A stretch of 62,222 nt of DNA from positions 1 to 62,222 of the forward strand of contig CAZHHW010000005.1 in NCBI GenBank assembly GCA_964532385.1. The letters are read 5' to 3'. The position numbers and the translations under genes were made by a program. The notes beneath the pieces were generated by a model. It searched no databases, had not been told where the DNA came from, and worked only from the letters and a program-made list of their open reading frames with translations. The DNA is from an uncultured Gammaproteobacteria bacterium. GTDB lineage: Bacteria; Pseudomonadota; Gammaproteobacteria; SG8-11. Positions 1-50,061 of the stretch are shown here, one piece after another; the stretch's first letter is position 1, and each line of letters opens with the position of its first letter.

Positions 1-454
1 CTCTTCTGACTATTTTTACAGGGAGAAAAGAGGCTTTTCAGGGGCGACTAGCTACCTCCTCGAGCTCGTGCGGTACGTTCATTTGAATCCGGTGCGCGCG
101 AAGCTCGTGCGCCAGGCACACCATTACCCGTGGTGCGGGCACCGCGCCTATTTGGGCCGCGAGACCCTGCCGTGGCTCACCACCGAGTGGGTGCTTAGCC
201 AATTCGGAACGCGACTGGGTACAAGCCGAAATCGCTATGAAGCTTTTGTACGCGAAGGCTACCGCGAAGGGCGACGCGATGATTTTCATTCCGGCGGCGA
301 TGACGATGGACGCGTGCTGGGCGATGATCGATTCACACGGCGTACCCTAAACAAGGCGATCACCTTGCCCAAAACAGTCACCCTGGAACAGGGTCAGGCT
401 TGCATAATTGCATTATCTGATATTATTCCGCGCCAGCGCGATGTCGCTGATTGA
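1..454 (+). pseudogene. Internal fragment of a Y1 (IS200/IS605-like, RAYT-like) transposase gene; frame is open from the window edge
   Basis: nt 49-387 align with nt 812-1150 of the intact copy (offset 763). nt 62-318 are identical, then 5 mismatches. Encodes ...ELVRYVHLNPVRAKLV... but lacks the HUH part; diverges after KTVTL and stops at 454. Confidence 0.6.
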
Positions 455-482
455 TTCACATACTGAAGGAGAACACCTGCCG

Positions 483-1424
483 ATGGCCCGCAAACCGCGA
501 CTACATGTGGACGAAGGAATCTACCACGTCATGCTGCGCGGTAACGGCGGGCAGGCTATTTACTTCGATGACGATGATCGTCTCCATTTTTATCTGTTGA
601 TGCAGGAAGGCATCGCACGTTATGGGCACCGCATCCATGGTTTCTGCCTGATGAGTAACCACGTGCATCTGGTCGTGGAAGTCGGCGCGCAACCGCTGGC
701 GAAGATCATGCAGAATCTGTCGTTCCGCTATACCCGCTGGGTGAACAAGAAACAAAAGCGTATCGGCCACCTGTTTCAAGGTCGCTACAAAGCAGTACTT
801 GTTGATCGCGATAGCTACCTGCTTGAGCTCGTGCGGTACGTTCATTTGAATCCGGTGCGCGCGAAGCTCGTGCGCCAGGCACACCATTACCCGTGGTGCG
901 GGCACCGCGCCTATTTGGGCCGCGAGACCCTGCCGTGGCTCACCACCGAGTGGGTGCTTAGCCAATTCGGAACGCGACTGGGTACAAGCCGAAATCGCTA
1001 TGAAGCTTTTGTACGCGAAGGCTACCGCGAAGGGCGACGCGATGATTTTCATTCCGGCGGCGATGACGATGGACGCGTGCTAGGCGATGAACGATTCACA
1101 CGACGTACCCTAAACAAGGCGATCACCTCACCCAAAACAGTCACCCTGGATCAGCTGATTCAAATGGTATGCGAGAAGTACAACGTGACCGAGAAAACGC
1201 TCGCATCTGTGGGACGCGAGCGTGCAACGTCCGAGGCGCGATCCGTGGTTGGATGGCTGGCACAGCAGTGCGCGCAAATAACCCTGACGGAAGTTGCAAA
1301 TCGTTTTAGGCGCGACGTGGCGACGCTGAGTCACGGAGTTAGACAATTGAGTTTGAAGGCGCAAACTTCCAAACCGTTAGCGACAAAATTGGCGAAGCTC
1401 AACAATACAATTAGGCAAGCCTGA
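483..1424 (+). CDS. Y1/HUH tyrosine transposase-like protein (IS200/IS605 or REP-associated RAYT type) with C-terminal DnaA-domain-IV-like HTH
   Basis: ATG 483 preceded by GAAGGAG. Motifs YHVMLRGN, MSNHVHLVVE (HUH), GHLFQGRYK, RYVHLNPVRA. C-terminal ...ATSEARSVVGWLAQQCAQITLTEVANRFRRDVATLSHGV resembles Bac_DnaA_C. Confidence 0.8.
   Translation: MARKPRLHVDEGIYHVMLRGNGGQAIYFDDDDRLHFYLLMQEGIARYGHRIHGFCLMSNHVHLVVEVGAQPLAKIMQNLSFRYTRWVNKKQKRIGHLFQGRYKAVLVDRDSYLLELVRYVHLNPVRAKLVRQAHHYPWCGHRAYLGRETLPWLTTEWVLSQFGTRLGTSRNRYEAFVREGYREGRRDDFHSGGDDDGRVLGDERFTRRTLNKAITSPKTVTLDQLIQMVCEKYNVTEKTLASVGRERATSEARSVVGWLAQQCAQITLTEVANRFRRDVATLSHGVRQLSLKAQTSKPLATKLAKLNNTIRQA
812..1150 (+). repeat. Direct repeat partner of nt 49-387 (339 nt, 7 mismatches in total)
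   Basis: Base-by-base comparison of the two stretches. Mismatches at copy-A positions 58, 61, 319, 328, 340, 366, 367. Confidence 0.9.
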
Positions 1425-24502: not shown

Positions 24503-24589
24503 TCATGCATAGGACCTGGAGGCATCATAAACGAGGGAGCGCCAAACCCGAAGGTCCGGCGCTCCCCGTTTCTCCCTGCAAACGTGGCT

Positions 24590-25681
24590 TTATTTGCGTT
24601 TTTTCTTGCTTGCGGCTTTTTTCGGCGCGGGTTTCTTTTTCGTAACGGCTTTCTTTTTTGCGACCGGTTTTTTGCTGACTTTTTTTGGCGCGGCTTTTTT
24701 CTTGAGAGCCACTTTCTTTTTTAGGGTCTTTTTCGCCGCCTTTTTCAGCGCGGCTTTTTTCTTCACGGCAGCCTTCTTGGCCGGAGCTTTTTTCAGGGCG
24801 GCTTTCTTCTTGGGCACCGCTTTCTTTTTTACCTTCGCGGCTTTTACCGGCGGCTTGACTGCGGGTTTTTTCACCACCGCCGGTGCGGGCGGCCGTTTGG
24901 GTACCGGTTTGGCGGCAAAAACCGCCGCCGCCGTGCGTGCGATTTCCGCCTGCCGTTCGGCGGTTTTCACCACTTTTTCGGGAGGCACATCGATGTCGTG
25001 CTGGACAAACATGTTTTCGATGACGCCTTGTTCCGGCAGCTCGTCGATAATTTTGCAGACGTCACTGAAAATATCTTGAATTTCACCCACGCCCTGCACC
25101 GTGCGCAGTTTGTTCTGATTGCGGTAATAGGCGATCAGCGGAGTGGTTTGCGCTTCGTAGACGCGCAACCGGTTGCCGATGGTTTCTTCGTTGTCGTCGG
25201 AGCGATGGTGCAGGTTGCCGCCGCAGCGGTCGCAACGATCCGCCAGACGCGACGGTGAGCTGTAAATGTTGAATAAAGTACCGCAGGAAACGCAAGTGCG
25301 TCGCCCGGTGATGCGCTGAATCAAGATGTCGAAGTCGACCGCAATCAGGATGGCTGCGTCCAGCGGACGTTTGATTTTCGCCAGCATCGCGTCCAAAGCC
25401 TGGGCTTGCATCATATTGCGCGGAAAGCCGTCGAGGATGAAGCCGTCCTGGGTATCCGGTTTAGACATCCGGTCACGGATCATCTCGAGCACGACTTGGT
25501 CGGGGACCAGTTGTCCAGCATCGAGTGCGGACTTGGCCAGCACGCCCGTGGGAGTTTTTGCATCCACCGCCGCACGTAATAAATCACCGGTGGAAATTTG
25601 CGGAATTTTGTATTTTTCAGCGAGACGTTTGGCTTGGGTTCCTTTGCCGGAACCGGGCGCACCAAGCAGTACGATTCTCAT
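24590..25681 (-). CDS. adk: Adenylate kinase fused in frame to a Lys/Ala/Pro-rich histone-H1-like C-terminal tail (363 aa)
   Basis: MRIVLLGAPGSGKGTQ P-loop; LID with CVSCG...CDRCGG. The protein then runs through a ~38-aa linker into 106 aa of KPAV repeats ending KKAASKKKRK. GGAG lies before ATG 25681. Confidence 0.85.
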   Translation of the reverse strand: MRIVLLGAPGSGKGTQAKRLAEKYKIPQISTGDLLRAAVDAKTPTGVLAKSALDAGQLVPDQVVLEMIRDRMSKPDTQDGFILDGFPRNMMQAQALDAMLAKIKRPLDAAILIAVDFDILIQRITGRRTCVSCGTLFNIYSSPSRLADRCDRCGGNLHHRSDDNEETIGNRLRVYEAQTTPLIAYYRNQNKLRTVQGVGEIQDIFSDVCKIIDELPEQGVIENMFVQHDIDVPPEKVVKTAERQAEIARTAAAVFAAKPVPKRPPAPAVVKKPAVKPPVKAAKVKKKAVPKKKAALKKAPAKKAAVKKKAALKKAAKKTLKKKVALKKKAAPKKVSKKPVAKKKAVTKKKPAPKKAASKKKRK

Positions 25682-25840
25682 TGTCGTGATCCACTCCCAT
25701 GGCTTGATTTTGACTGCCGAACTATGCATCGAACCTTAGGTCCGGTCAATGCCGTCATCAGCGATTTCAGCTTCTCGCCGGCGGCGAGCTAGAGTAGATA
25801 GTAGTCGGTTTCTTGATTAGCACAATTACGGGAGCAAGAC

Positions 25841-27106
25841 ATGGCAAAGAAGAATGCTTTTTACGCGCAGTCGGGTGGGGTTACCGCAGTCATCAATGCA
25901 TCGGCCTGCGGAGTGATCGAAACCGCGCGCAAACATAAAGACAAGATCGGCAAGGTCTACGCCGGGCGCAATGGCATCATCGGCGCGCTGACCGAAGACC
26001 TGATCGACACCAGCAAGGAATCGGCGGCATTTATCAAGGCACTGCGCCATACGCCGTCCGGCGCGTTCGGTTCATGCCGTTACAAATTGAAAAGCCTGGA
26101 GCAAAACCGGCGCGAGTACGAGCGCCTGATCGAAGTGTTCAAGGCACACAACATCGGCTACTTTTTTTACAACGGCGGCGGCGACTCGGCCGACACCTGT
26201 TTGAAAGTGTCACAGCTTGCCGAAACCATGGGCTACCCGATTCAGGCAGTGCATGTGCCCAAGACCGTCGACAACGATTTGCCGATCACCGACAACTGTC
26301 CCGGCTTCGGCTCGGTGGCCAAGTACATCGCGGTGTCGACGCGCGAAGCAAGCTTCGACGTGGCGAGCATGGCCAAGACCTCAACCAAAGTGTTCGTGCT
26401 TGAAGTCATGGGCCGGCACGCCGGATGGATCGCGGCGGCGGGCGGCATGGCGTCAAGTAAAGACACTGAAATCCCGATCGTCATTCTGTTTCCAGAAATC
26501 GCGTTCGAGCGCGCCAAGTTCATCGCCAAAGTGGATGGGTTAGTGAAGAAGCACGGCTATTGCTCGGTGGTGGTGTCGGAAGGCGTGCATGGGGCCGACG
26601 GCAAATTTCTTTCCGACCAAGGCCTGCGCGACGCGTTCGGTCATGCGCAACTGGGCGGTGCCGCGCCGGTGATCGCGGCGATGATCAAGGAAGATTTAAA
26701 TTTGAAATACCACTGGGCGGTGGCCGATTATTTACAGCGCGCCGCGCGTCATGTCGCGTCCAAGTCCGACGTCGAGCAAGCGTACGCGACCGGCAAAGCT
26801 GCCGTGGAATTCGCACTCAAAGGCCACAACGCCGTGATGCCCGCCATCACGCGCGTGTCGAACAAGCCGTACAAGTGGAAAATCGAAATGGCGCCGCTGG
26901 CCAAAGTCGCCAATGTTGAAAAAATGATGCCACGCGATTTCATTACCGAAGACGGCTTCGGTATCACGCCGAAGTGCCGCGACTATCTGGCGCCTCTGAT
27001 CAAGGGCGAAGATTATCCACCGTACAAAGATGGCCTGCCGCAATACGTGCGCTTGAAGAATGTGGCGGTGGCGAAGAAGCTGGCGGAGTTTGTGATGAGC
27101 AAATAG
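25841..27106 (+). CDS. pfp: 6-phosphofructokinase family enzyme, probably pyrophosphate-dependent
   Basis: MAKKNAFYAQSGGVTAVINAS, YNGGGDSADT, PKTVDNDL, EVMGRHAGW. The ~420-aa form resembles methanotroph-type PPi-PFK from memory; PPi dependence is inferred. Confidence 0.75.
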   Translation: MAKKNAFYAQSGGVTAVINASACGVIETARKHKDKIGKVYAGRNGIIGALTEDLIDTSKESAAFIKALRHTPSGAFGSCRYKLKSLEQNRREYERLIEVFKAHNIGYFFYNGGGDSADTCLKVSQLAETMGYPIQAVHVPKTVDNDLPITDNCPGFGSVAKYIAVSTREASFDVASMAKTSTKVFVLEVMGRHAGWIAAAGGMASSKDTEIPIVILFPEIAFERAKFIAKVDGLVKKHGYCSVVVSEGVHGADGKFLSDQGLRDAFGHAQLGGAAPVIAAMIKEDLNLKYHWAVADYLQRAARHVASKSDVEQAYATGKAAVEFALKGHNAVMPAITRVSNKPYKWKIEMAPLAKVANVEKMMPRDFITEDGFGITPKCRDYLAPLIKGEDYPPYKDGLPQYVRLKNVAVAKKLAEFVMSK

Positions 27107-27324
27107 TCACGTGCCACGTTCTGTGGCCATTACCTGTGCTTAAAACAACATTAAGTGGCGCTGGAAAAAATTGTCATGCCGGCAGGCATGAGGGGTGGGT
27201 GTGGTTATTTTGTGCGTGATAGCATCGCCAATGCTGCATACCTCCGGCCTGTTTGCTTTCATGCAGGGGCGCTGTGCACATCAAGACAAACATGGAAACT
27301 TAAAATTCAGACGAGGGACAGAGC

Positions 27325-28281
27325 ATGACATCATATTATGGGAGATCTATTCTAGGCGCCGCGAGTGTAAGTCTGGCCGTGCTTCTTACGGCGAATTTGA
27401 CGGGATGTAATGACCCGGAGAAACAGGCTAAGGAAGTCGATACAACTGCGCCGGTCACGGAGATTGCCGACACGACCAATTATGCCACCCTGGCCGCCGA
27501 CGAAGTTCAGCACGCACTGAGTTATGCCGATTTACAGGGTGTAGCCGTGACCACGGTGTTTTACTGTAGCAGCCCGGCTCCACGCACGACCGATACCGGT
27601 AATGGCAGTATTTCCGTCACCGTCGATGATGTCGATCCGCCCGGGCATTCCGCCGGGGACAGCTACACGACCACTTACGATATGTGCGTTCAGTTTGGCC
27701 GTACGCTCGATGGCAGCAGCAAGTTCACGATTGATGCGTTGTCGGGTGAGCTGTTTTCACCGGCACCGGCGATCTGGAATATCGCAACCACCGCGGTGTC
27801 GGATATGACGATTACCACCGCCACCTCAAGCCGTACCGAGCAAAGCAGTTATGCGTTCACCGCAGGTACGACCGACGGGGTGATTTATTCCAAGATCGCG
27901 GAGGGTACTTCCAGCGGGAGCGTTACACGAGCGAGCGTGACGACCACCCAGTCCAGCAACTTTAAAATGACCATGGACGAAAATCACAGCACCAATTTGT
28001 ATACGCACACCATGCTGGTGGACAGGAAAGGCGGTGCGCGTGGCGATCTGTTGATTGAAACCCCGGAAGCATTGGAAGGTCCATTGGGCACCTTCGGCAC
28101 TGCGCCGACCAGCGGCTCGATCAAGGTGACGCGTATTACTGCGGCGGCCACGTCCATTACCACCATAACCGCACTGGGTGGAGGTGATGCGCGTGTCGAT
28201 GTCGACAGTAACGGCGACGGCACCATCGATACGACTTCTACTGTGCCTTGGCGGCGCGCAATTCTTGGTCTGTTGTTTTAA
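27325..28281 (+). CDS. Hypothetical Thr/Ser-rich lipoprotein
   Basis: Lipobox LLTANLTGC after a signal peptide; GAGGGA before the ATG; no recognised domain; strong terminator downstream. Confidence 0.6.
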   Translation: MTSYYGRSILGAASVSLAVLLTANLTGCNDPEKQAKEVDTTAPVTEIADTTNYATLAADEVQHALSYADLQGVAVTTVFYCSSPAPRTTDTGNGSISVTVDDVDPPGHSAGDSYTTTYDMCVQFGRTLDGSSKFTIDALSGELFSPAPAIWNIATTAVSDMTITTATSSRTEQSSYAFTAGTTDGVIYSKIAEGTSSGSVTRASVTTTQSSNFKMTMDENHSTNLYTHTMLVDRKGGARGDLLIETPEALEGPLGTFGTAPTSGSIKVTRITAAATSITTITALGGGDARVDVDSNGDGTIDTTSTVPWRRAILGLLF

Positions 28282-28340
28282 GGCCACATCCGCAGGTGAA
28301 CTCGTACTGATTTCTTCTGCTTAAAGTTGTGTAAAGTGAA

Positions 28341-28372
28341 AGAGGGACGATGAGTCGTCCCTCTTTTATTTT
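28341..28372 (+). terminator. Rho-independent terminator
   Basis: AGAGGGACGA-tgag-TCGTCCCTCT (10-bp perfect stem) followed by TTTATTTTT. Confidence 0.85.
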
Positions 28373-28503
28373 TAAAACGAGGGTGACGTTTTAACGAGGA
28401 TATTTTTTAAAGACGAAACGGGTTTTACCGATAAATGAGCCGTTGAATCCAACTAAGTGATTCGCATCCAGTACGGGCCACGACAATAAATTGGGATCAA
28501 AAC

Positions 28504-29343
28504 ATGAACAAATCCCCGCGCGCCTGGTTTAGGCAGGGTTTATTGTGGGCCGGGTTATGGTTTTCGTTCATACCGGGCGCGGTCTATGCTGATCTCATTC
28601 TGTCTGCGCCGCCGCGTGAAAGTGCCGAACAAGGCAAACGCATGTATGAGCCGCTCGCCCAATATATCGGCGACCTGGTGGGCGAACCGGTGACCTACGC
28701 GCAGCCGCTCGACTGGCTGCAATACGCTTCTGAAATGCGCAGCGGGAAATACGACATCGTATTCGACGGCCCGCATTTCGCTGCGTGGCGGATCAAACAT
28801 CTGAACCACACGCCCCTGGTTAAATTGCCTGGAACGCTGGATTTTGTCGTTATTGCGCGCTGGGGCGACAAGCGCATCAATAAATTGCGCGATCTGGTCG
28901 CCTTGCCGGTGTGCGGGTTGCCGTCGCCTAATTTGGGCACCACGATGGTGATGGCGCAATTTGTTAATCCGGTCACGCAACCCGACATCCATGAGGCCAA
29001 GGGAGGATTCGACGATGTGGTGGCTACGTTTGCTTCCGGTAAATGCCGTGCCGCAATTATTCGGGATTCGGTGTTTAAAAAACTGAACGACATTGATAAA
29101 AAGCAATTTAAAGTCATATTCAAAAGTCCATCGTTTCCAAATCAAACCGTCACCGTGAGTGATCGCATCCAGCCGAAGTTGTACGCAAAATTAATTGCCG
29201 GATTGACAGTAAAGAAAGGCTTCGCCCCAGGGGAGAACCTGTTTGCGGAGCTGAGCAAAAATGCCCGCTTCTTTATCCCCGCTCAGAGCGCTGAGTACAA
29301 AGGCATGGAAACATTGCTGGAAGGCGTGGTGTGGGGTTGGTGA
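28504..29343 (+). CDS. Periplasmic substrate-binding protein, PhnD/phosphonate-ABC-like family (orphan)
   Basis: Signal peptide, then ILSAPPRES....Y.PLAQYI, YDIVFDGPHF pattern typical of PhnD-like SBPs. Confidence 0.6.
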   Translation: MNKSPRAWFRQGLLWAGLWFSFIPGAVYADLILSAPPRESAEQGKRMYEPLAQYIGDLVGEPVTYAQPLDWLQYASEMRSGKYDIVFDGPHFAAWRIKHLNHTPLVKLPGTLDFVVIARWGDKRINKLRDLVALPVCGLPSPNLGTTMVMAQFVNPVTQPDIHEAKGGFDDVVATFASGKCRAAIIRDSVFKKLNDIDKKQFKVIFKSPSFPNQTVTVSDRIQPKLYAKLIAGLTVKKGFAPGENLFAELSKNARFFIPAQSAEYKGMETLLEGVVWGW

Positions 29344-29439
29344 GTACTGCGGAAAATTTTGGGTATATAATGCGCCCCCAAGATTTTTCAATGACTGCGC
29401 TAACGCGGCCGACAGCTAACAGTATTCTAGGAGTGAGCA

Positions 29440-29988
29440 ATGAATCTGGACCGTGTTACATCCGGTAAAGACATACCGCATGACATTAACGTCATCATCG
29501 AAATTCCCGCGCATAGCGATCCAATCAAATACGAAGTCGACAAGCTCACAGGTGCCATGTTCGTTGACCGCTTCATGGCCACGGCCATGCACTATCCGGT
29601 GAATTATGGCTATGTTCCGCACACCTTGTCGGAAGACGGGGACCCGGTCGATGTGCTGGTGGTCACTCCATTCCCGCTGCGTACCGGTATTGTGATCCGT
29701 TGCCGTCCCGTGGGCATGCTGAATATGACGGACGAATCCGGCGTGGACGCGAAAATTATCGCCGTGCCGGTAAAAAAGCTCACATCCTTGTATGACCGGG
29801 TCAATACCTATTTGGATTTACCGCAGCAGCTTCTTGACCAGGTGGCGCACTTTTTCGAACATTACAAAGACCTGGAACCTGGTAAATGGGTCAAGGTGGA
29901 AAGCTGGGTCGGTGCGGAAGATGCGAAAGCGGAAATCCTCGCCGGCCTCAAGCGTTACGAAGCCTTGCCGGAAAAACCCTACTTCTAA
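29440..29988 (+). CDS. ppa: Inorganic pyrophosphatase (family I)
   Basis: [37 protein letters not shown]; AGGAG before the ATG. Confidence 0.93.
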
Positions 29989-45360: not shown

Positions 45361-45774
45361 TTATAGCTGCGATGGATCCTTGCGCAGGTCCTTGCACACA
45401 AGGACGCCATCGTGCCCGCCGCTCAGTGCTTTTTCAGCCAGCTCGTTGAGGCTTAGCTTGGGATAGTTCATCACCCGCAACAGCATCGGCAGGTTGATGC
45501 CCGCAATCACCCGCACGTGATGATTACCCTGCAACGCGGACGCAACATTGCTGGGTGTGCTGCCGAACAAATCAGTCAAGACCAGCACTCCGTCGCCGTC
45601 GTCGACTTCGCACACCAGCTTGTGGGCGTGGTCGAGCATGGCATCGGGATCTTTATCCGAAGTTATACCCAGCAATGCGACCGGAATCGGCTGTGTGCCG
45701 AGCATGCCGACGGTCGCGTCGAGCAGCGCACGGCCCAAGTCATTGTGGGTAATGATCAATAATCCGACGCTCAT
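45361..45774 (-). CDS. PTS EIIA component, mannose/fructose family
   Basis: VGLLIITHNDLG (active His), VLVLTDLFGSTPSN. ATGA overlap with the rapZ stop. Confidence 0.85.
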   Translation of the reverse strand: MSVGLLIITHNDLGRALLDATVGMLGTQPIPVALLGITSDKDPDAMLDHAHKLVCEVDDGDGVLVLTDLFGSTPSNVASALQGNHHVRVIAGINLPMLLRVMNYPKLSLNELAEKALSGGHDGVLVCKDLRKDPSQL

Positions 45775-46628
45775 GCTAACTCCCTGTGTCGCGCCAGTAC
45801 TCCGCTGCGGGTTTTTGCAAAATGGTCCGCCAGGCGCCGGGCGAAGTAGACCGAGCGGTGTTGTCCGCCGGTGCAACCGATGGCAACGGTAACGTAACTG
45901 CGGTTATCGGCTTCAAATTGCGGCAGCCATTGTTCCAGGAAATTGCGGATATCGCCAAACATCTGGATAGCATGCGGATCGCGTTCCAGAAATTCGGCGA
46001 CATCGCTGTCCAGGCCGGTTTTATCGCGCAGGGTGGGTACCCAATGGGGATTCGCCAGGCAGCGCACATCGAAAACGAAGTCGGCATCCGTGGGCACTCC
46101 GCGCTTGAAGGCGAACGATTCAAATAATAATGACAGCGTTTGCTGCGGTTTTTCCAGTACTCGTATGCGGATGGCATCGCGTAATTGATGAATGTTGTAA
46201 TGGCTGGTGTCGACGAAAAGATCGGCGCACCCGGCGATGGGCTCCAGTACCTTGCGTTCGCGTTGCATGGCTTCCGCCAGCGGAATGGCGACATCCGACA
46301 GGGGATGTTTGCGGCGCGTTTCGCTGAAGCGCTTGAGCAACACATTGTCGTCGGCATAGAGGAACAAGGTTTCGCAGACGATCCCGCCTGCCTTGAGTTC
46401 GGCCAGTATTTTCGGGAAATTCTCGATATCGTCGGGCACATTACGCGCATCGATGCCGATCGCCGCGCCGATCGGACAAGTCTCCGTGCTCATCGACATG
46501 CGTTGTGCGAACGCAGGCAAAAGACCGGCCGGCAAATTGTCGATGCAGTAGAAACCCAAATCTTCGAAAACATTGAGCGCGGTACTTTTTCCGGAACCCG
46601 ATACACCGCTCACGACATACAACTTCAT
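45771..46628 (-). CDS. rapZ: RNase adapter protein RapZ
   Basis: P-loop SGVSGSGKSTA, FVFDVR, AIGCTGGQHRSV. Confidence 0.92.
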   Translation of the reverse strand: MKLYVVSGVSGSGKSTALNVFEDLGFYCIDNLPAGLLPAFAQRMSMSTETCPIGAAIGIDARNVPDDIENFPKILAELKAGGIVCETLFLYADDNVLLKRFSETRRKHPLSDVAIPLAEAMQRERKVLEPIAGCADLFVDTSHYNIHQLRDAIRIRVLEKPQQTLSLLFESFAFKRGVPTDADFVFDVRCLANPHWVPTLRDKTGLDSDVAEFLERDPHAIQMFGDIRNFLEQWLPQFEADNRSYVTVAIGCTGGQHRSVYFARRLADHFAKTRSGVLARHRELA

Positions 46629-47581
46629 GGGGGCGGTTGCTCCATATGGTCGTGTTGCTGGGCAGAGAAAGCATCGAAGGCATCATAGCCCTGATTGAGT
46701 AATATCTGGTTGCGCGCGGCGCATTCTACCACCACGGCCAAGTGGCGTCCGGGGGTTACGGGCAAGGTCACTTTATGGATGGAAACGCCCAGTACGTCGT
46801 AGGTTTGCCGCGCCGTGGTCAGGCGCTGAGTACGGTTAAGTTGTTCATCGCCCATTTTTATCAATTCTACCGCCAATTGAAGCCGTTCAGTCTGTTTGAC
46901 AGCGCTCTCCCCGAACATGGTGCGGATGTTCAGCACGCCCAGTCCACGCACTTCGAGGAAGTCACGTAATACCGGTGGACAGCTGCCCACGATGACATCG
47001 CCGTCCGCACGGTGAAATTCCGGTGCGTCGTCGGCGATCAAACGGTGTCCGCGGCTCAGTAAATCCAGGGCCAGTTCGCTTTTTCCGATGCCGCTTTCGC
47101 CGGTTAACAAAATGCCGATGCCGACGATTTCCATGAATACGCCGTGCGTGGTGATGTGTTTGGTAAATGTGGTTTTGAGATGGTAAGTAATACGCTCGAT
47201 CACGTCCTGTGCTTTGGCGCGTGCGCTCCATAGCGGGGTGCCGGTATCTTCGGCGAGACGTTTTAAACCGGCCGGGGGTTTCAGCCCGTCAGTGACGATA
47301 ATGGCGGCGGGATCGTTGTCGAACAAATGCACGATGACATCGGCATGCGCGTTTTTACCCAGCTTATTCAAATACTCGAGTTCTTTGCTTCCCAGTACCT
47401 GAATACGCGGAGCGTGGATACAGTTCATGTATCCCGCCAGCACTCGGTCGGCTTCAGCTGCGTGCAGGTTATCCGGGTGTTGCAGTACGCGGTGCTTGCC
47501 GGAATGTCCCGCAACCCATTCCAGGCCCGAGGTTAATTCGTGCGTAGTGAACAAGGTTGCGACTGAAACGTTTTGCGTCAT
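46625..47581 (-). CDS. hprK: HPr kinase/phosphorylase (full length)
   Basis: HGVFMEIVGIGILLTGESGIGKSELALDL, ADD, LEVRGLG. Confidence 0.9.
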   Translation of the reverse strand: MTQNVSVATLFTTHELTSGLEWVAGHSGKHRVLQHPDNLHAAEADRVLAGYMNCIHAPRIQVLGSKELEYLNKLGKNAHADVIVHLFDNDPAAIIVTDGLKPPAGLKRLAEDTGTPLWSARAKAQDVIERITYHLKTTFTKHITTHGVFMEIVGIGILLTGESGIGKSELALDLLSRGHRLIADDAPEFHRADGDVIVGSCPPVLRDFLEVRGLGVLNIRTMFGESAVKQTERLQLAVELIKMGDEQLNRTQRLTTARQTYDVLGVSIHKVTLPVTPGRHLAVVVECAARNQILLNQGYDAFDAFSAQQHDHMEQPPP

Positions 47582-48042
47582 GGCGCGTGGTGTGGATTCC
47601 AGTGCGTAAGCGCCGCGAGCAGCGCGTCGGTATCCTTGGCTTGACGCAATTGATTGCGGATCGCTTCGTTGCTGAACAATTCTGCGATTTGCGCCACCAG
47701 TTGCAGATGTTCTTCAGTGCAATGTTCCGGCACCACGATGGCGAATAATAAGTCCACCGGGCCACGGTCGGCAGCATCGAAATCAACGCCCTGAACCAGT
47801 TGCACGAAGGCGCCGCGCGTGCCGGAAATTTTTTTCATGCGGCCGTGCGGCAATGCCACGCCGTAACCCAGCGCCGTACTGCCCAAACGCTCGCGCGCAG
47901 TCAGGCTCTCAAAAATTTCCTGCGAGGTTGTATCGGCTTTTTCGGCCAGGAGCAGGCTTAATAATTCCAGCGCGCGCTTTTTGCTGCTGGCTTGTGCGCC
48001 TGCAAGCACGCGTTGTGGGGCCAAAATATCGCTTAATTGCAT
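47578..48042 (-). CDS. ptsN: PTS IIA-Ntr (nitrogen regulatory EIIA)
   Basis: MQLSDIL..., RERLGSTALGYGVALPHGR (active His). Alternative starts at 48075/48153. Confidence 0.88.
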   Translation of the reverse strand: MQLSDILAPQRVLAGAQASSKKRALELLSLLLAEKADTTSQEIFESLTARERLGSTALGYGVALPHGRMKKISGTRGAFVQLVQGVDFDAADRGPVDLLFAIVVPEHCTEEHLQLVAQIAELFSNEAIRNQLRQAKDTDALLAALTHWNPHHAP

Positions 48043-48236
48043 AAGATCGTCGGCTCTATGGGCGGCAGCGGTCATTAATAATCCATTGCGCCAAAAGACG
48101 GATATGAAACCGTTGGTTTTTTTGCAGGGCTCCCTTGCGGGACGCCGCGGCATGCCGCATGCGGCTGCGTAGCTGTGCCTCGCCTGGCAAAAAAATCCAT
48201 CGGCTTCATTTCATATTCCTTTGACGAAACGAACAT

Positions 48237-48530
48237 CTAGCGGTGTTGGTCAATGCGTTTTTCTTTAAGCTTGTTGGCCTGCCGGTCAAGCTTGTCGATC
48301 AACGAATCGATCGCAGCGTACATGTCTTGTTCTTCCGCGTTTGCGAACAGGTTATCACCATTTGCAGACACGGTGGCTTCGGCTCGGTGGCGTAACTTCT
48401 CTACTCCCAGGATAACGTGCACCTTTGAAACCTTATCGAAATGGCGTTCCAGGCGTGCCATTTTTTCAGTGGTGTAATCACGCAGCGCAGTGGTGATTTC
48501 AACATGGTGACCGGTGATGTCGATTTGCAT
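48237..48530 (-). CDS. hpf: Ribosome hibernation promoting factor (short HPF)
   Basis: MQIDITGHHVEITTALRDYTTEKMARLERHF; lies immediately downstream of rpoN. Confidence 0.92.
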   Translation of the reverse strand: MQIDITGHHVEITTALRDYTTEKMARLERHFDKVSKVHVILGVEKLRHRAEATVSANGDNLFANAEEQDMYAAIDSLIDKLDRQANKLKEKRIDQHR

Positions 48531-48582
48531 GAGGCTGCTCCTTTAATTGTAATTGTGATTTAAATGTAAAGACTTGGCTTGT

Positions 48583-50061
48583 CTAGGCGAGCCGTTTGCG
48601 TTCGTTGGAAGGAGGAATGGTCATGGCTTCGCGATATTTTGCGACCGTGCGGCGCGCGACCTTGATGCCTTGGTCGGATAACAGGCTCGCAAGTTTGCTA
48701 TCACTCAGCGGCTTGTTGCGTTCCTCGGCGGAGATCAGTTTTTTCAGCATGGCGCGAATCGCGGTGGAGGAGCATTCGCCGCCATCTTCGGTGGCTACAT
48801 GGCTGCTGAAGAAATATTTCAATTCGTAAATGCCGCGCGGTGTGTGCATGTATTTTTTGGTGGTGACGCGCGAAATGGTGGATTCGTGCATGCCGACTTC
48901 TTGTGCAATGACCGACATCACCAGCGGCTGCATGGCCTCATCGCCGTACTCAAGGAAACCACGTTGCCGTTCGACGATGCAGGTTGCGACTTTAAGCAAG
49001 GTTTCGTTGCGGCTTTGCAGGCTTTTCAGCAGCCAGCGTGCTTCCTGCAACTGATTTTTTAAATAAGTGGAATCGGCGGAATTGCGTGAATGCTGCGCCA
49101 TGCCGGAATACAGGGAGTTGATTCGCAGTTTAGGCGAGGTGTCCGGATTCAATTCCACCTTCCAGAGATTGTTGCGTTTGCGTACGTAAACATCAGGCAC
49201 TACATATTCGGTTTGCTGATCGGTGATCTGCCCGCCGGGCCGCGGATTGACGGTTTGCAGCAGTGCAATCACCTGTTGTAAATCGGCTTCAGGTAATTTC
49301 ATGCGGCGCATGATCAAGCTGTAATCACGGTGTGCCAGCAAATCGAAATGCTCGCGTGCCAGGCACACGGCTTCGGCGAGCCAAGGCGTTCCGGCGGGAT
49401 ATTGTTTGAGTTGCAACAGCATGCTTTCGCGCAAGTCGCGCGCACCGATACCGGGTGGATCGAATTGCTGGATGCGATGCAGCACGGCTTCGATTTCTTC
49501 GCGTCCGATGTCTGGATCGCTGGCGAATTCCAGCTGTAATTCTTCGATCGGCGTGGTGAGATAACCGTCATGATCGATGGCGTCGATGATGGTCAGCGCG
49601 ATCGACAAATCGGTCGGCGAAAACGGTGCCATCTGCACTTGCCAGGTTAAGTGGTCGTGCAGACTTTCACCACTCTGGTTCTGGGTTTCAAACTCGCGGC
49701 CATCGTGATCCGCGCCATTGCCGGAAGCGGAGGCGCCATAGGTTTCAAATGTATCGAAGGTGTCGTCCCAGTTACTGTCCACCGGTAGATCGTCGGGGAT
49801 GGTGGATTCATTGATTTCCACATCCGCTTCGCGCGACTCAGTGGCGACCGTGATTTCGGTTTCGCGCATATGTTCCGCGGGAAGATCTTCGTCTTCGCCG
49901 CCCTCATCCTCGGTAATTTCGAGCATGGGGTTGGACTCCAGCGCTTGTTGCATTTCCTGTTGCAACTCGAGCGCGGACAATTGCAGCAACCGGATGGCCT
50001 GCTGCAATTGCGGCGTCATCGTCAGATGTTGGCCGATGCGAAGTTGTAGCGATTGTTTCAT
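48583..50061 (-). CDS. rpoN: RNA polymerase sigma-54 factor
   Basis: [25 protein letters not shown] region I, acidic region II, RpoN box [12 protein letters not shown]. Confidence 0.95.

What the first reader, a model, noticed from the sequence alone, without database searches (positions are those of the whole stretch)
24590..25030. Adenylate kinase continuing in frame into a ~106-aa Lys/Ala/Pro histone-H1-like tail
The adk ORF (24590-25681, 363 aa) contains a complete Adk: the P-loop GAPGSGKGTQ and a zinc-type LID (CVSCG...CDRCGG). It does not stop at ~215 aa. A ~38-aa linker (VIENMFVQHDIDVPPEKVVKTAERQAEIARTAAAVFAA) leads into 106 residues made almost only of K, A, P and V (KPVPKRPPAPAVVKKPAVKPPVKAAKVKKKAVPKKKAALKKAPAKK...KKAASKKKRK). 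On the plus strand the DNA is a degenerate GCGGCTTTTTTC-like low-complexity tract. Comparable tails occur in histone H1 and in the bacterial proteins AlgP, Hc1, BpH1, mycobacterial HupB and PhaF, where they bind DNA or other polyanions. A nucleoid- or polyanion-tethered adenylate kinase would be an unusual way to localise AMP/ADP/ATP equilibration. I know of no described example.
Basis: partly seen in the sequence, partly recalled or inferred. Interest (0 to 1): 0.7.

Follow-up and report, generated by a model that had tools for sequence, protein, structure and literature searches.

The report
Adenylate kinase with histone-H1-like tail
The cell's housekeeping adenylate kinase here really does carry a 106-residue, lysine-rich, disordered tail like that of histone H1; the fusion is conserved in hundreds of uncultured Gammaproteobacteria, probably sticks the enzyme to DNA, RNA or polyphosphate, and I found no study of it.

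Summary
One minus-strand ORF (24590-25681, 363 aa) encodes a complete zinc-LID adenylate kinase (aa 1-213). It is followed by a mildly acidic 44-aa linker and a 106-aa tail with 46 Lys, 2 Arg and no Asp or Glu (net +48, pI 12), predicted to be disordered.

It is not a frameshift or assembly artefact.
- The 120 best full-length hits all carry such tails.
- A search with the kinase core alone shows that nearly all relatives at 54% identity or more are 320-550 aa.
- About 66 of 80 species-representative genomes (all MAGs) carry the tail at the same locus, next to PPi-phosphofructokinase, pyrophosphatase or hemB.
- On a core-domain tree the tailed proteins form one large clade with few losses. A second tailed subfamily exists in marine Arenicellales.
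- Tail composition is conserved while its sequence and length drift.
- Lysine codons are arranged to avoid long poly(A) runs.
- In about 756 kb of window and related loci, almost the only Lys-rich tract is this tail.

The most likely function is an electrostatic tether to nucleic acid (rival: polyphosphate), by analogy with H1, AlgP, PhaF and HupB. This is inferred, not shown. No paper describing it was found, although databases annotate many as plain "adenylate kinase". Verdict: a real new variant of known kinds, of moderate interest.

The parts
24590..25681 (-). adk coding sequence: 363 codons plus the TAA stop at 24590-24592
   Evidence: ORF list and sequence. Pfam and NCBIfam Adk matches above their cut-offs. 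Most homologues start at MRIVLLG.
25043..25681 (-). Adenylate kinase catalytic core, aa 1-213 (CORE, NMP-binding and LID domains)
   Evidence: NF001380 aligns to aa 1-214 with 292.7 bits. AF2 pLDDT is about 90 or higher. PDB Adk chains align to aa 1 to about 213. P-loop, Arg and Asp catalytic positions are invariant in 60 homologues.
25634..25663 (-). P-loop GAPGSGKGTQ (aa 7-16)
   Evidence: Read directly from the sequence. G7-Q16 are invariant in alignment A1.
25196..25303 (-). LID with four cysteines (C130, C133, C150, C153), a zinc-type LID, aa 127-162
   Evidence: Pfam ADK_lid matches aa 127-162 at E 5e-10. The four Cys are invariant in 60 homologues. The best PDB matches include PDB 1zin and 1p3j, which I recognise from my own knowledge as Bacillus-type zinc-LID Adks. 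Metal binding was not tested.
24911..25042 (-). Linker aa 214-257, net charge -4. It contains the conserved motif ELPEQGVIENMFVQHDIDVPPEK (24974-25042) followed by the predicted helix TAERQAEIARTAAAV.
   Evidence: Composition. The motif ELPE..[ILV][ED]xMF..[DE][IV]x[IVL]P is kept in 33 of 180 tailed Adks, down to about 60% core identity. AF2 predicts short helices at 220-224 and 241-255 with pLDDT of only about 50.
24593..24910 (-). Polycationic disordered tail aa 258-363: 46 K, 2 R, 0 D/E, in a KK(K)-xxx-KK(K) rhythm
   Evidence: Composition and 12 KKxxxKK matches. AF2 pLDDT is below 50 throughout. Composition is conserved but sequence and length are not. Poly(A) runs are avoided.
24534..24567 (-). 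Terminator-like hairpin (15 pairs, 10 G-C) followed by a T-rich stretch, 23 nt after the adk stop codon
   Evidence: Consensus scan only. The hairpin is visible in the sequence.
25721..25749 (-). Sigma-70-like promoter match (TTGACC, 17 nt spacer, CATAGT). It overlaps the upstream in-frame ATG at 25729, which argues that 25681 is the true start.
   Evidence: Consensus scan, 9 of 12 matches. This is weak evidence.

Best explanation
This is the organism's housekeeping adenylate kinase, the orthologue of plain adk at the same chromosomal locus. It is translated as one polypeptide. A fully intact catalytic core is joined through a short acidic linker to a roughly 100-residue intrinsically disordered polycation (net +48).

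Shown here:
- The fusion is real, old, retained across a large gammaproteobacterial clade and specific to Adk.
- The tail is under selection for composition (Lys about 40%, almost no acidic residues) and for error-free expression, not for exact sequence.

Inferred:
- The tail acts as a non-specific electrostatic tether to cellular polyanions.
- The main partner is most likely nucleic acid (chromosomal DNA and/or ribosomal and messenger RNA).
- This would keep AMP-to-ADP recycling close to the places where ATP is split into AMP + PPi (aminoacyl-tRNA synthesis, nucleic-acid synthesis and ligation).
- The catalytic mechanism itself is expected to be unchanged.
For: Single ORF with an intact Adk core and invariant catalytic and zinc-ligand positions.

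Independent confirmation of the frame:
- All 120 best hits are 317-510 aa with K/A-rich tails.
- A core-only search finds that nearly all single-domain relatives at 54% identity or more are 320-550 aa.
- About 66 of 80 species genomes are tailed.

Orthology: tailed and plain adk share the same neighbours. The PPi-PFK gene lies beside adk in 49 of 80 loci, ppa in 27 and hemB in 13.

Phylogeny: the core-domain tree shows one large tailed clade with only 3 plain members nested inside.

Composition is conserved: median tail 142 aa, K 40%, D/E 1%, net +55. Sequence is not: tails are 52-64% identical with many gaps where cores are 95-98% identical.

Codon-level selection: the longest A-run is 7 and every KKK contains an AAG. 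Only 0.36% of codon shuffles do as well. Across 53 loci the observed run is shorter than the shuffle mean in 47, Wilcoxon p = 3.6e-9.

Specificity: this is the only Lys-rich tract in the 62-kb window and almost the only one in 694 kb of related loci.

The tail is predicted to be disordered.

Analogies from the literature:
- KPAA-type K/A/P tails bind DNA and localise AlgP to polyphosphate granules (PMC9239181).
- The PhaF tail binds RNA (PMC12818456).
- Lys-rich low-complexity regions are enriched in DNA- and RNA-binding proteins (PMC6821194).
- Even tail-less E. coli Adk binds ribosomes with a Kd of about 3.7 uM, which changes its kinetics (PMC6471074).
Against: - No binding, localisation or expression data exist for any member, so the partner (DNA, RNA, polyphosphate, membrane or none) is undetermined.
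- All tailed examples found are from MAGs or metagenomes, and no cultured carrier was identified.
- Some lineages lost the tail without obvious consequence: Ectothiorhodospira and L051.
- The tail matches no curated DNA-binding family above its cut-off.
- The benefit of tethering an enzyme whose substrates diffuse rapidly is not self-evident.
Confidence: 0.55

Rival explanations
1. Polyphosphate-granule tether. The tail binds polyphosphate rather than nucleic acid. This places Adk on granules beside PPK or PPK2/PAP, so that polyP + AMP gives ADP and then ATP locally, forming a polyP-driven ATP-regeneration hub.
For: - AlgP, which has a K/A/P tail, is enriched on and organises polyP granules (PMC9239181).
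- Adk together with PPK gives polyP:AMP phosphotransferase activity in E. coli (PMC3163519).
- PAP plus Adk regenerates ATP from polyP, according to a title in the reference list of PMC8776046.
- The tail has no acidic residues and a very high charge density.
- The conserved neighbours are phospho-anhydride enzymes: PPi-PFK and PPase.
Against: - There are no ppk, ppk2 or ppx genes in the window or in the matched neighbourhoods.
- Adk was not mentioned in the main text of the AlgP granule study.
- The tail lacks KPAA repeats.
- Electrostatic tails do not discriminate polyP from DNA or RNA in silico.
Confidence: 0.2
2. The tail does not tether the enzyme. It is a disordered appendage that acts as a solubility or 'entropic bristle' element, a regulator of turnover (for example a handle for polyP-Lon-type proteolysis), a condensate driver, or a local reservoir of nucleotide counter-ions.
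For: - Tail sequence and length drift rapidly while only composition is kept, which is typical of bulk-property disordered regions.
- Some homologues place an acidic block (up to 15 D/E in 20 aa) before the basic tail, an arrangement that could self-interact.
- Lysine/RNA interactions drive condensates (title and abstract of PMC6606616).
Against: - A +48 polycation in a cytoplasm full of nucleic acid will bind it unless shielded.
- Known bacterial K/A/P tails that have been tested all bind polyanions (PMC9239181, PMC12818456, PMC5676037).
- Nothing computational supports any specific alternative.
Confidence: 0.15
3. The fusion is only apparent. The tail would be made as a separate H1-like protein from an internal start (for example the conserved Met224 in IENMF), or the long ORF would be an assembly or frameshift artefact or a decaying read-through.
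For: - Met224 is conserved in the window's subclade.
- A few MAG loci have broken or over-long adk ORFs: L023, L067 and L063.
Against: - The same in-frame architecture occurs in more than 150 independent assemblies, with variable linkers that mostly lack any Met.
- No stand-alone tail gene follows plain adk genes.
- Codon arrangement indicates translation through the tail in this frame.
- Only a weak AAGG lies 13 nt upstream of the Met224 codon.
- A terminator-like hairpin follows the stop at 24590, not the core.
Confidence: 0.04

Closest known systems
Histone H1 C-terminal domain and bacterial H1-like proteins (chlamydial Hc1/Hc2, Bordetella BpH1, Burkholderia H1-like NF038053)
   Same: A long, disordered tract rich in Lys, Ala and Pro with almost no acidic residues. 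Weak compositional matches to Pfam HC2 (PF07382; many homologues carry precomputed hits) and to NF038053 (54.8 bits in P0079).
   Different: There is no winged-helix or other DNA-binding globular domain. The tract is attached to a metabolic enzyme. All family scores are below their cut-offs (13.4 against 40, and 12.3 against 80).
AlgP and PhaF of Pseudomonas (KPAA-repeat tails)
   Same: A C-terminal K/A/P-rich disordered tail of 100-200 aa on a folded N-terminal domain. Those tails bind DNA, RNA and polyP granules and position their cargo (PMC9239181, PMC12818456).
   Different: There are no KPAA tetrapeptide repeats (0 found). Lysine density is higher: 43% against the 25% implied by a pure KPAA repeat. 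The rhythm is KK(K)xxxKK(K). The N-terminal domain is Adk, not a helical or phasin domain.
Lys-rich tails on actinobacterial DNA enzymes and nucleoid proteins (mycobacterial HupB, Streptomyces TopA, M. smegmatis Ku)
   Same: An enzyme or folded protein is extended by lysine repeats that add non-specific polyanion affinity (PMC5676037, PMC7398561, PMC3553676).
   Different: Those proteins already act on DNA, whereas Adk has no known nucleic-acid substrate. They also belong to a different phylum.
Chlamydomonas ADK3 with a CP12-like C-terminal tail
   Same: An adenylate kinase carrying a disordered C-terminal extension that mediates an interaction (PMC9406205).
   Different: The ADK3 tail is a short CxxxPxxxxC redox motif that binds GAPDH. 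The tail here has no Cys and is a polycation.
NCBIfam NF010381 (PRK13808), a 335-position 'adenylate kinase' model
   Same: It is a curated model of an over-long Adk. Tailed homologue P0062 aligns to model positions 1-335.
   Different: The window protein scores 218 bits against a cut-off of 426. Only aa 1-127 align well, which suggests that the model's core has a short LID. I could not determine which organisms the model covers.

Membership tests
Adenylate kinase (EC 2.7.4.3), long-LID bacterial type | Profile match above the curated cut-off | tested here: met
   Pfam PF00406 scores 188.4 bits (cut-off 26.8). NF001380 scores 292.7 (cut-off 251). TIGR01351 scores 248 (cut-off 168).
Adenylate kinase (EC 2.7.4.3), long-LID bacterial type | P-loop GxPGxGKGT plus conserved Arg and Asp of the NMP and LID sites | tested here: met
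   G7-Q16, R36, R88, R123, R127, R160, D162, D163 and R171 are invariant across 60 homologues including the window protein.
Adenylate kinase (EC 2.7.4.3), long-LID bacterial type | Adk fold | tested here: met
   The AF2 core has pLDDT of about 90 or higher with the expected strand and helix order. aa 1 to about 213 align to many PDB Adk chains, E down to 5e-68.
Adenylate kinase (EC 2.7.4.3), long-LID bacterial type | Catalytic activity and zinc in the Cys4 LID | not testable with these tools
   The Cys4 motif is present and invariant. Enzyme assay and metal analysis are needed.
Linker histone H1/H5 | Winged-helix globular domain | tested here: not met
   The Pfam scan at E up to 1 found no linker-histone domain, only Adk and P-loop families and a weak HC2 match.
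Linker histone H1/H5 | K/A/P-rich disordered C-terminal domain | tested here: met
   K 43%, A 23%, P 13%, no D or E. pLDDT below 50.
Chlamydial Hc2 (PF07382) | Profile match above the gathering score | tested here: not met
   13.4 bits against a cut-off of 40, E 0.083.
Burkholderia-type histone H1-like protein (NF038053) | Profile match above the cut-off | tested here: not met
   12.3 bits against a cut-off of 80 for the tail alone.
AlgP/PhaF KPAA-repeat proteins | Tandem KPAA (KPVA/KTAAA) repeats | tested here: not met
   0 KPAA in the tail. The pattern is KK(K)xxxKK(K). TRF finds only weak 14-18 nt periodicity.
AlgP/PhaF KPAA-repeat proteins | Binding of DNA, RNA or polyP by the tail | not testable with these tools
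   Needs EMSA or localisation experiments.
NCBIfam NF010381 (PRK13808) long adenylate kinase | Score at or above 426 bits | tested here: not met
   218.4 bits. The best stretch covers only aa 1-127.
CP12-tailed adenylate kinase (Chlamydomonas ADK3) | C-terminal CxxxPxxxxC motif | tested here: not met
   There is no cysteine after residue 209. The motif is described in PMC9406205.

The most novel reading that the evidence does not exclude
In this clade the entire cellular pool of adenylate kinase may be a nucleoid-, ribosome- or polyP-bound polycation. It would then double as an abundant H1-like architectural or condensate-forming protein. It could organise an AMP + PPi salvage hub with the conserved neighbours PPi-phosphofructokinase and pyrophosphatase, linking adenylate energy charge to chromosome or granule organisation.
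Probability: 0.12. Interest if true: 0.8.

Novelty: new variant of a known kind. Interest (0 to 1): 0.55.

Why it matters
Adenylate kinase is usually treated as a freely diffusing cytoplasmic enzyme that sets the AMP/ADP/ATP balance. Here a whole clade of environmentally abundant, mostly sulfur-oxidiser-affiliated Gammaproteobacteria has kept a +50-charge histone-like tail on its only recognisable adk orthologue over deep divergence. This implies that where the enzyme sits, or what it sticks to, matters.

If the tail tethers Adk to nucleoid, ribosomes or polyphosphate, it would be a clear natural example of spatial organisation of core energy metabolism in bacteria by a disordered region. It would also add a metabolic enzyme to the short list of bacterial H1-like proteins. 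The system is directly testable with a synthetic gene.

Tried and rejected
- Homology search with linker plus tail alone found nothing at E <= 1e-3, because compositional correction removes low-complexity matches. Proteins with similar tails on other domains could therefore not be listed.
- Tandem Repeats Finder shows only weak 14-18 nt periodicity, so the tail is not a recent perfect repeat array.
- Rfam found no RNA family anywhere in the window.
- Two cluster look-ups to find a cultured carrier gave only unnamed or MAG entries.
- An exact look-up of the window protein's contig found nothing on record.
- Five literature searches for a Lys-rich or disordered-tail bacterial Adk found no such report. 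One search failed on syntax.
- I looked for short-LID tailed Adks that might explain NF010381 among the core-search hits and found none.
- The difference in AAA/AAG usage between core and tail is not significant (Fisher p = 0.15), and the tail matches the usage of 13 other genes in the window (66% AAA). Only the arrangement of the codons is non-random.
- The artefact or frameshift reading and the 'mirror' Phe-rich plus-strand ORF were considered and rejected.
- The upstream ATG at 25729 was rejected as the start. Most homologues begin at MRIVLLG, and a promoter-like -10 element overlaps that ATG.
Full report
**1. What is in the sequence**

On the minus strand a single ORF runs from 25729 to 24590. 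The adenylate kinase start, MRIVLLGAPGSGKGTQ, is the ATG at 25681, giving 363 aa. Most homologues start there. A sigma-70-like promoter match (-35 at 25749, -10 ending at 25721) overlaps the upstream ATG, so 25681 is the likely start.

Pfam ADK matches aa 5-190 (E 1e-55) and ADK_lid matches aa 127-162. The NCBIfam adk equivalog NF001380 matches aa 1-214 at 292.7 bits against a cut-off of 251.

In a 60-sequence alignment the following are invariant:
- the P-loop;
- R36, R88, R123, R127, R160, D162, D163 and R171;
- the four LID cysteines C130, C133, C150 and C153.

The core aligns to PDB Adk chains over aa 1 to about 213. No solved Adk is longer than 245 aa, and none covers the extension.

After the core come two further segments:
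- A 44-aa linker (aa 214-257, net charge -4).
- A 106-aa tail (aa 258-363, coordinates 24593-24910) with 46 K, 24 A, 14 P, 12 V, 2 R and no D or E. Net charge is +48 and pI is 12. It follows a KK(K)-xxx-KK(K) rhythm, with 12 KKxxxKK matches and no KPAA.

AlphaFold2 with a 60-sequence alignment gives the following:
- pLDDT of about 90 or higher for the core;
- two low-confidence helices in the linker (220-224 and 241-255, pLDDT about 50);
- pLDDT below 50 for the whole tail.

A 15-bp G+C-rich hairpin followed by a T-rich stretch (24567 to 24534) lies just after the stop codon.

**2. Is it real, or an artefact or chance?**

*Independent sequences.* The 120 best hits to the full protein are all 317-510 aa with K/A-rich tails. 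That search is biased by tail words, so I repeated it with the core only (aa 1-215) against 1.84 billion cluster representatives, a search that uses no word index. Setting aside multi-domain multi-Adk proteins (probably eukaryotic), nearly all relatives at 54% identity or more are 320-550 aa, with Adk at the N-terminus and a Lys/Ala-rich extension. Plain proteins of about 215 aa become common only at 53% identity or less.

*Species genomes.* Among 80 loci from species-representative genomes, about 66 carry the tail. All of these are MAGs labelled Gammaproteobacteria, Thiogranum, Thiohalobacter, Acidiferrobacteraceae, Ectothiorhodospiraceae, Thiotrichaceae, Chromatiales or Natronospirales. The following have plain adk of 213-220 aa:
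- cultured Ectothiorhodospira and Methylophaga;
- MAGs of Methylophaga/Methylophagaceae, Thiothrix and Thiolinea;
- three further MAGs: L051 (Gammaproteobacteria), L073 (Rhodospirillales) and L079 (Nevskiales).

*Phylogeny.* A neighbour-joining tree of core domains shows one large tailed clade in which only L051 and the two Ectothiorhodospira are plain. The simplest history is one ancient gain with rare losses.

*Second subfamily.* A second tailed subfamily has a different linker (IRPLE...TIIAGG). It is found in Arenicellales and Tara ocean data and is uniformly 300-390 aa.

*Orthology.* Tailed and plain genes sit in the same neighbourhood. The PPi-dependent phosphofructokinase gene lies divergently beside adk in 49 of 80 loci. 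Inorganic pyrophosphatase lies nearby in 27, and directly adjacent where pfp is absent, including in plain Ectothiorhodospira. hemB-aroE lies downstream in 13 and 8 loci respectively. The tailed gene is therefore the housekeeping orthologue, not an extra paralogue.

*Specificity.* The tail is the only Lys-rich tract in the 62-kb window. In 694 kb of related loci every Lys-rich tract but one is the Adk tail or an alternative frame of it. The adjacent PPi enzymes have no such tail.

*Mode of evolution.* Against the closest relatives, cores are 95-98% identical without gaps. Tails are only 52-64% identical with 13-31 gap columns. Across 120 homologues composition stays fixed: median tail 142 aa, K 40%, D/E 1%, net +55.

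*Codon arrangement.* The longest A-run in the tail is 7 nt. Every KKK triplet contains at least one AAG. Only 0.36% of shuffles of the same Lys codons among the same positions do as well. Over 53 tailed loci the observed longest A-run is below the shuffle mean in 47, Wilcoxon p = 3.6e-9. Avoiding slippery poly(A) is what one expects of a tract that must be transcribed and translated faithfully in this frame. That interpretation is my inference, drawing on the known slipperiness of poly(A) lysine runs.

Taken together, the fusion is genuine, translated as one protein and maintained by selection.

**3.

The linker is not featureless. The motif ELPE-x(1-2)-[ILV]-[ED]-x-MF-x3-[DE]-[IV]-x-[IVL]-P (aa 214-234) is retained in 33 of 180 tailed Adks. 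These are the window's subclade, reaching down to about 60% core identity. It may be a short linear interaction motif.

The following helix AERQAEIARTAAAVFAA is confined to close relatives. Other subclades use other linkers, and some insert a strongly acidic block (up to 15 D/E in 20 aa) before the basic tail.

The gene appears monocistronic, with a promoter-like site and a terminator-like hairpin. Both are consensus matches only.

**4. How it most likely works**

Shown: the catalytic core is intact, the tail is a disordered polycation, and composition and expression fidelity are under selection.

Inferred: a +48 disordered tail will bind polyanions electrostatically. Every bacterial K/A/P tail that has been tested does so:
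- AlgP binds DNA, localises to polyphosphate granules and spaces them (PMC9239181).
- PhaF's KPAA region binds mRNA and activates translation (PMC12818456).
- HupB's tail is indispensable for its nucleoid function (title of PMC5676037).
- Lys-rich low-complexity regions are enriched in DNA- and RNA-binding proteins (PMC6821194).

Even tail-less E. coli Adk binds ribosomes weakly (Kd about 3.7 uM) with altered kinetics (PMC6471074).

I therefore commit to a tether model. The tail holds the cell's Adk on nucleic acid (nucleoid and/or ribosomes). This concentrates AMP re-phosphorylation where ATP is cleaved to AMP + PPi. The conserved divergent pairing of adk with PPi-PFK and pyrophosphatase fits an AMP + PPi salvage theme, but it is shared with plain-adk relatives and so does not explain the tail. 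Confidence is about 0.55.

The main rival is a polyphosphate-granule tether that would create a polyP-to-ATP hub (about 0.2). AlgP and Adk + PPK/PAP biochemistry provide the precedent (PMC3163519 and PMC8776046), but no polyP genes lie in the window or in the matched neighbourhoods.

Non-tether bulk-property roles get about 0.15. Separate translation or an artefact gets about 0.04.

**5. Comparison with what is known**

*What it works like:* H1 C-terminal domains, AlgP/PhaF, HupB and TopA-type lysine tails.

*Membership:* it is a bona fide adenylate kinase, with all testable defining features met. It is not a member of any H1-like family:
- no winged-helix domain;
- HC2 at 13.4 bits against a cut-off of 40;
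- NF038053 at 12.3 bits against a cut-off of 80;
- no KPAA repeats.

It also falls below the cut-off of NCBIfam NF010381, a 335-position 'adenylate kinase' model (218 against 426). The full length of that model aligns to tailed homologue P0062. The existence of that model shows that over-long Adks are already present in annotation resources.

The only described Adk with a disordered C-terminal tail that I found is Chlamydomonas ADK3. Its short CP12-like Cys motif binds GAPDH and is unrelated in sequence and chemistry (PMC9406205).

Five literature searches found no report of a Lys-rich tailed bacterial Adk. The library lacks most subscription journals, so absence is not proof.

**6. Novelty and verdict**

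The parts are known kinds: Adk, and an H1-like polycationic disordered region. The combination, its breadth (dozens of species-level lineages and at least two subfamilies) and its long retention appear undescribed. I rate it a new variant of a known kind.

It is not unique to this window and not categorically new. No function has been demonstrated, and no cultured carrier has been identified. Interest is 0.55: a real, conserved and easily testable oddity in a textbook enzyme.

The most novel reading not excluded is that Adk doubles as an abundant H1-like chromatin or condensate protein that organises AMP/PPi salvage. I give that a probability of about 0.12.

Noticed in passing
window 24590-29988; loci L001-L079: adk is divergently paired with a PPi-dependent phosphofructokinase (25841-27106, NF010675 at 668.7 bits). 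An inorganic pyrophosphatase lies nearby (29440-29988). pfp is beside adk in 49 of 80 related loci and ppa in 27. ppa is directly adjacent where pfp is missing, including in plain-adk Ectothiorhodospira. This looks like a conserved AMP + PPi recycling neighbourhood that is independent of the tail.
   Followed up: partly
window 24593-24910; 53 tailed loci: Lysine codons in the tails are arranged so that A-runs rarely exceed 7-8 nt, and every KKK in the window tail contains an AAG. Observed runs are shorter than in codon shuffles (window: 0.36% of shuffles do as well; 53 loci: Wilcoxon p = 3.6e-9).
   Followed up: yes
window 24974-25042 (aa 214-236): A short conserved linker motif, ELPEQGVIENMFVQHDIDVP, lies between the core and the tail. 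It is kept in 33 of 180 tailed Adks down to about 60% core identity. It may be a linear interaction motif, or the site of an internal Met.
   Followed up: partly
homologues P0024, P0057, P0144, P0156 and others: Some tailed Adks insert a strongly acidic block (runs of D/E, up to 15 in 20 aa) between the core and the basic tail. This block-polyampholyte arrangement could self-interact or autoinhibit.
   Followed up: no
P0190 family: A second, distinct tailed-Adk subfamily has an [ED]IRPLE...TIIAGG linker. It is uniformly 300-390 aa and is found in Arenicellales MAGs and Tara ocean data.
   Followed up: partly
window 408-1424 (+): This ORF combines an IS200-like Y1 transposase domain (PF01797) with a DnaA C-terminal helix-turn-helix domain (PF08299).
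   Followed up: no
window 27325-28281 (+): A 318-aa ORF with a lipoprotein-like N-terminus (…LTGC) has no Pfam or NCBIfam match. It is conserved only in the closest locus, L001 (64% identity).
   Followed up: no
window 24594-25079 (+): A 161-aa Phe/Ala/Gly-rich ORF lies on the opposite strand of the tail. It is a mirror-image artefact of the Lys/Ala coding tract, not a gene.
   Followed up: yes
L023, L067, L063: Three MAG loci have disrupted or over-long adk ORFs: stops at 141 and 100 aa with the Lys-rich tract in another frame, and one 694-aa read-through. L063 is labelled Candidatus Aminicenantes but carries a gammaproteobacterial-type tailed adk, which suggests assembly errors or mis-binning.
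   Followed up: no
window 45771-50061 (-): A standard rpoN - PTS-EIIA(Ntr) - HPr kinase - RapZ cluster is present. The rest of the window is housekeeping chromosome (sucAB-lpd, gltA, dapF, xerC, polA). There is no Rfam RNA family hit in 62 kb.
   Followed up: partly
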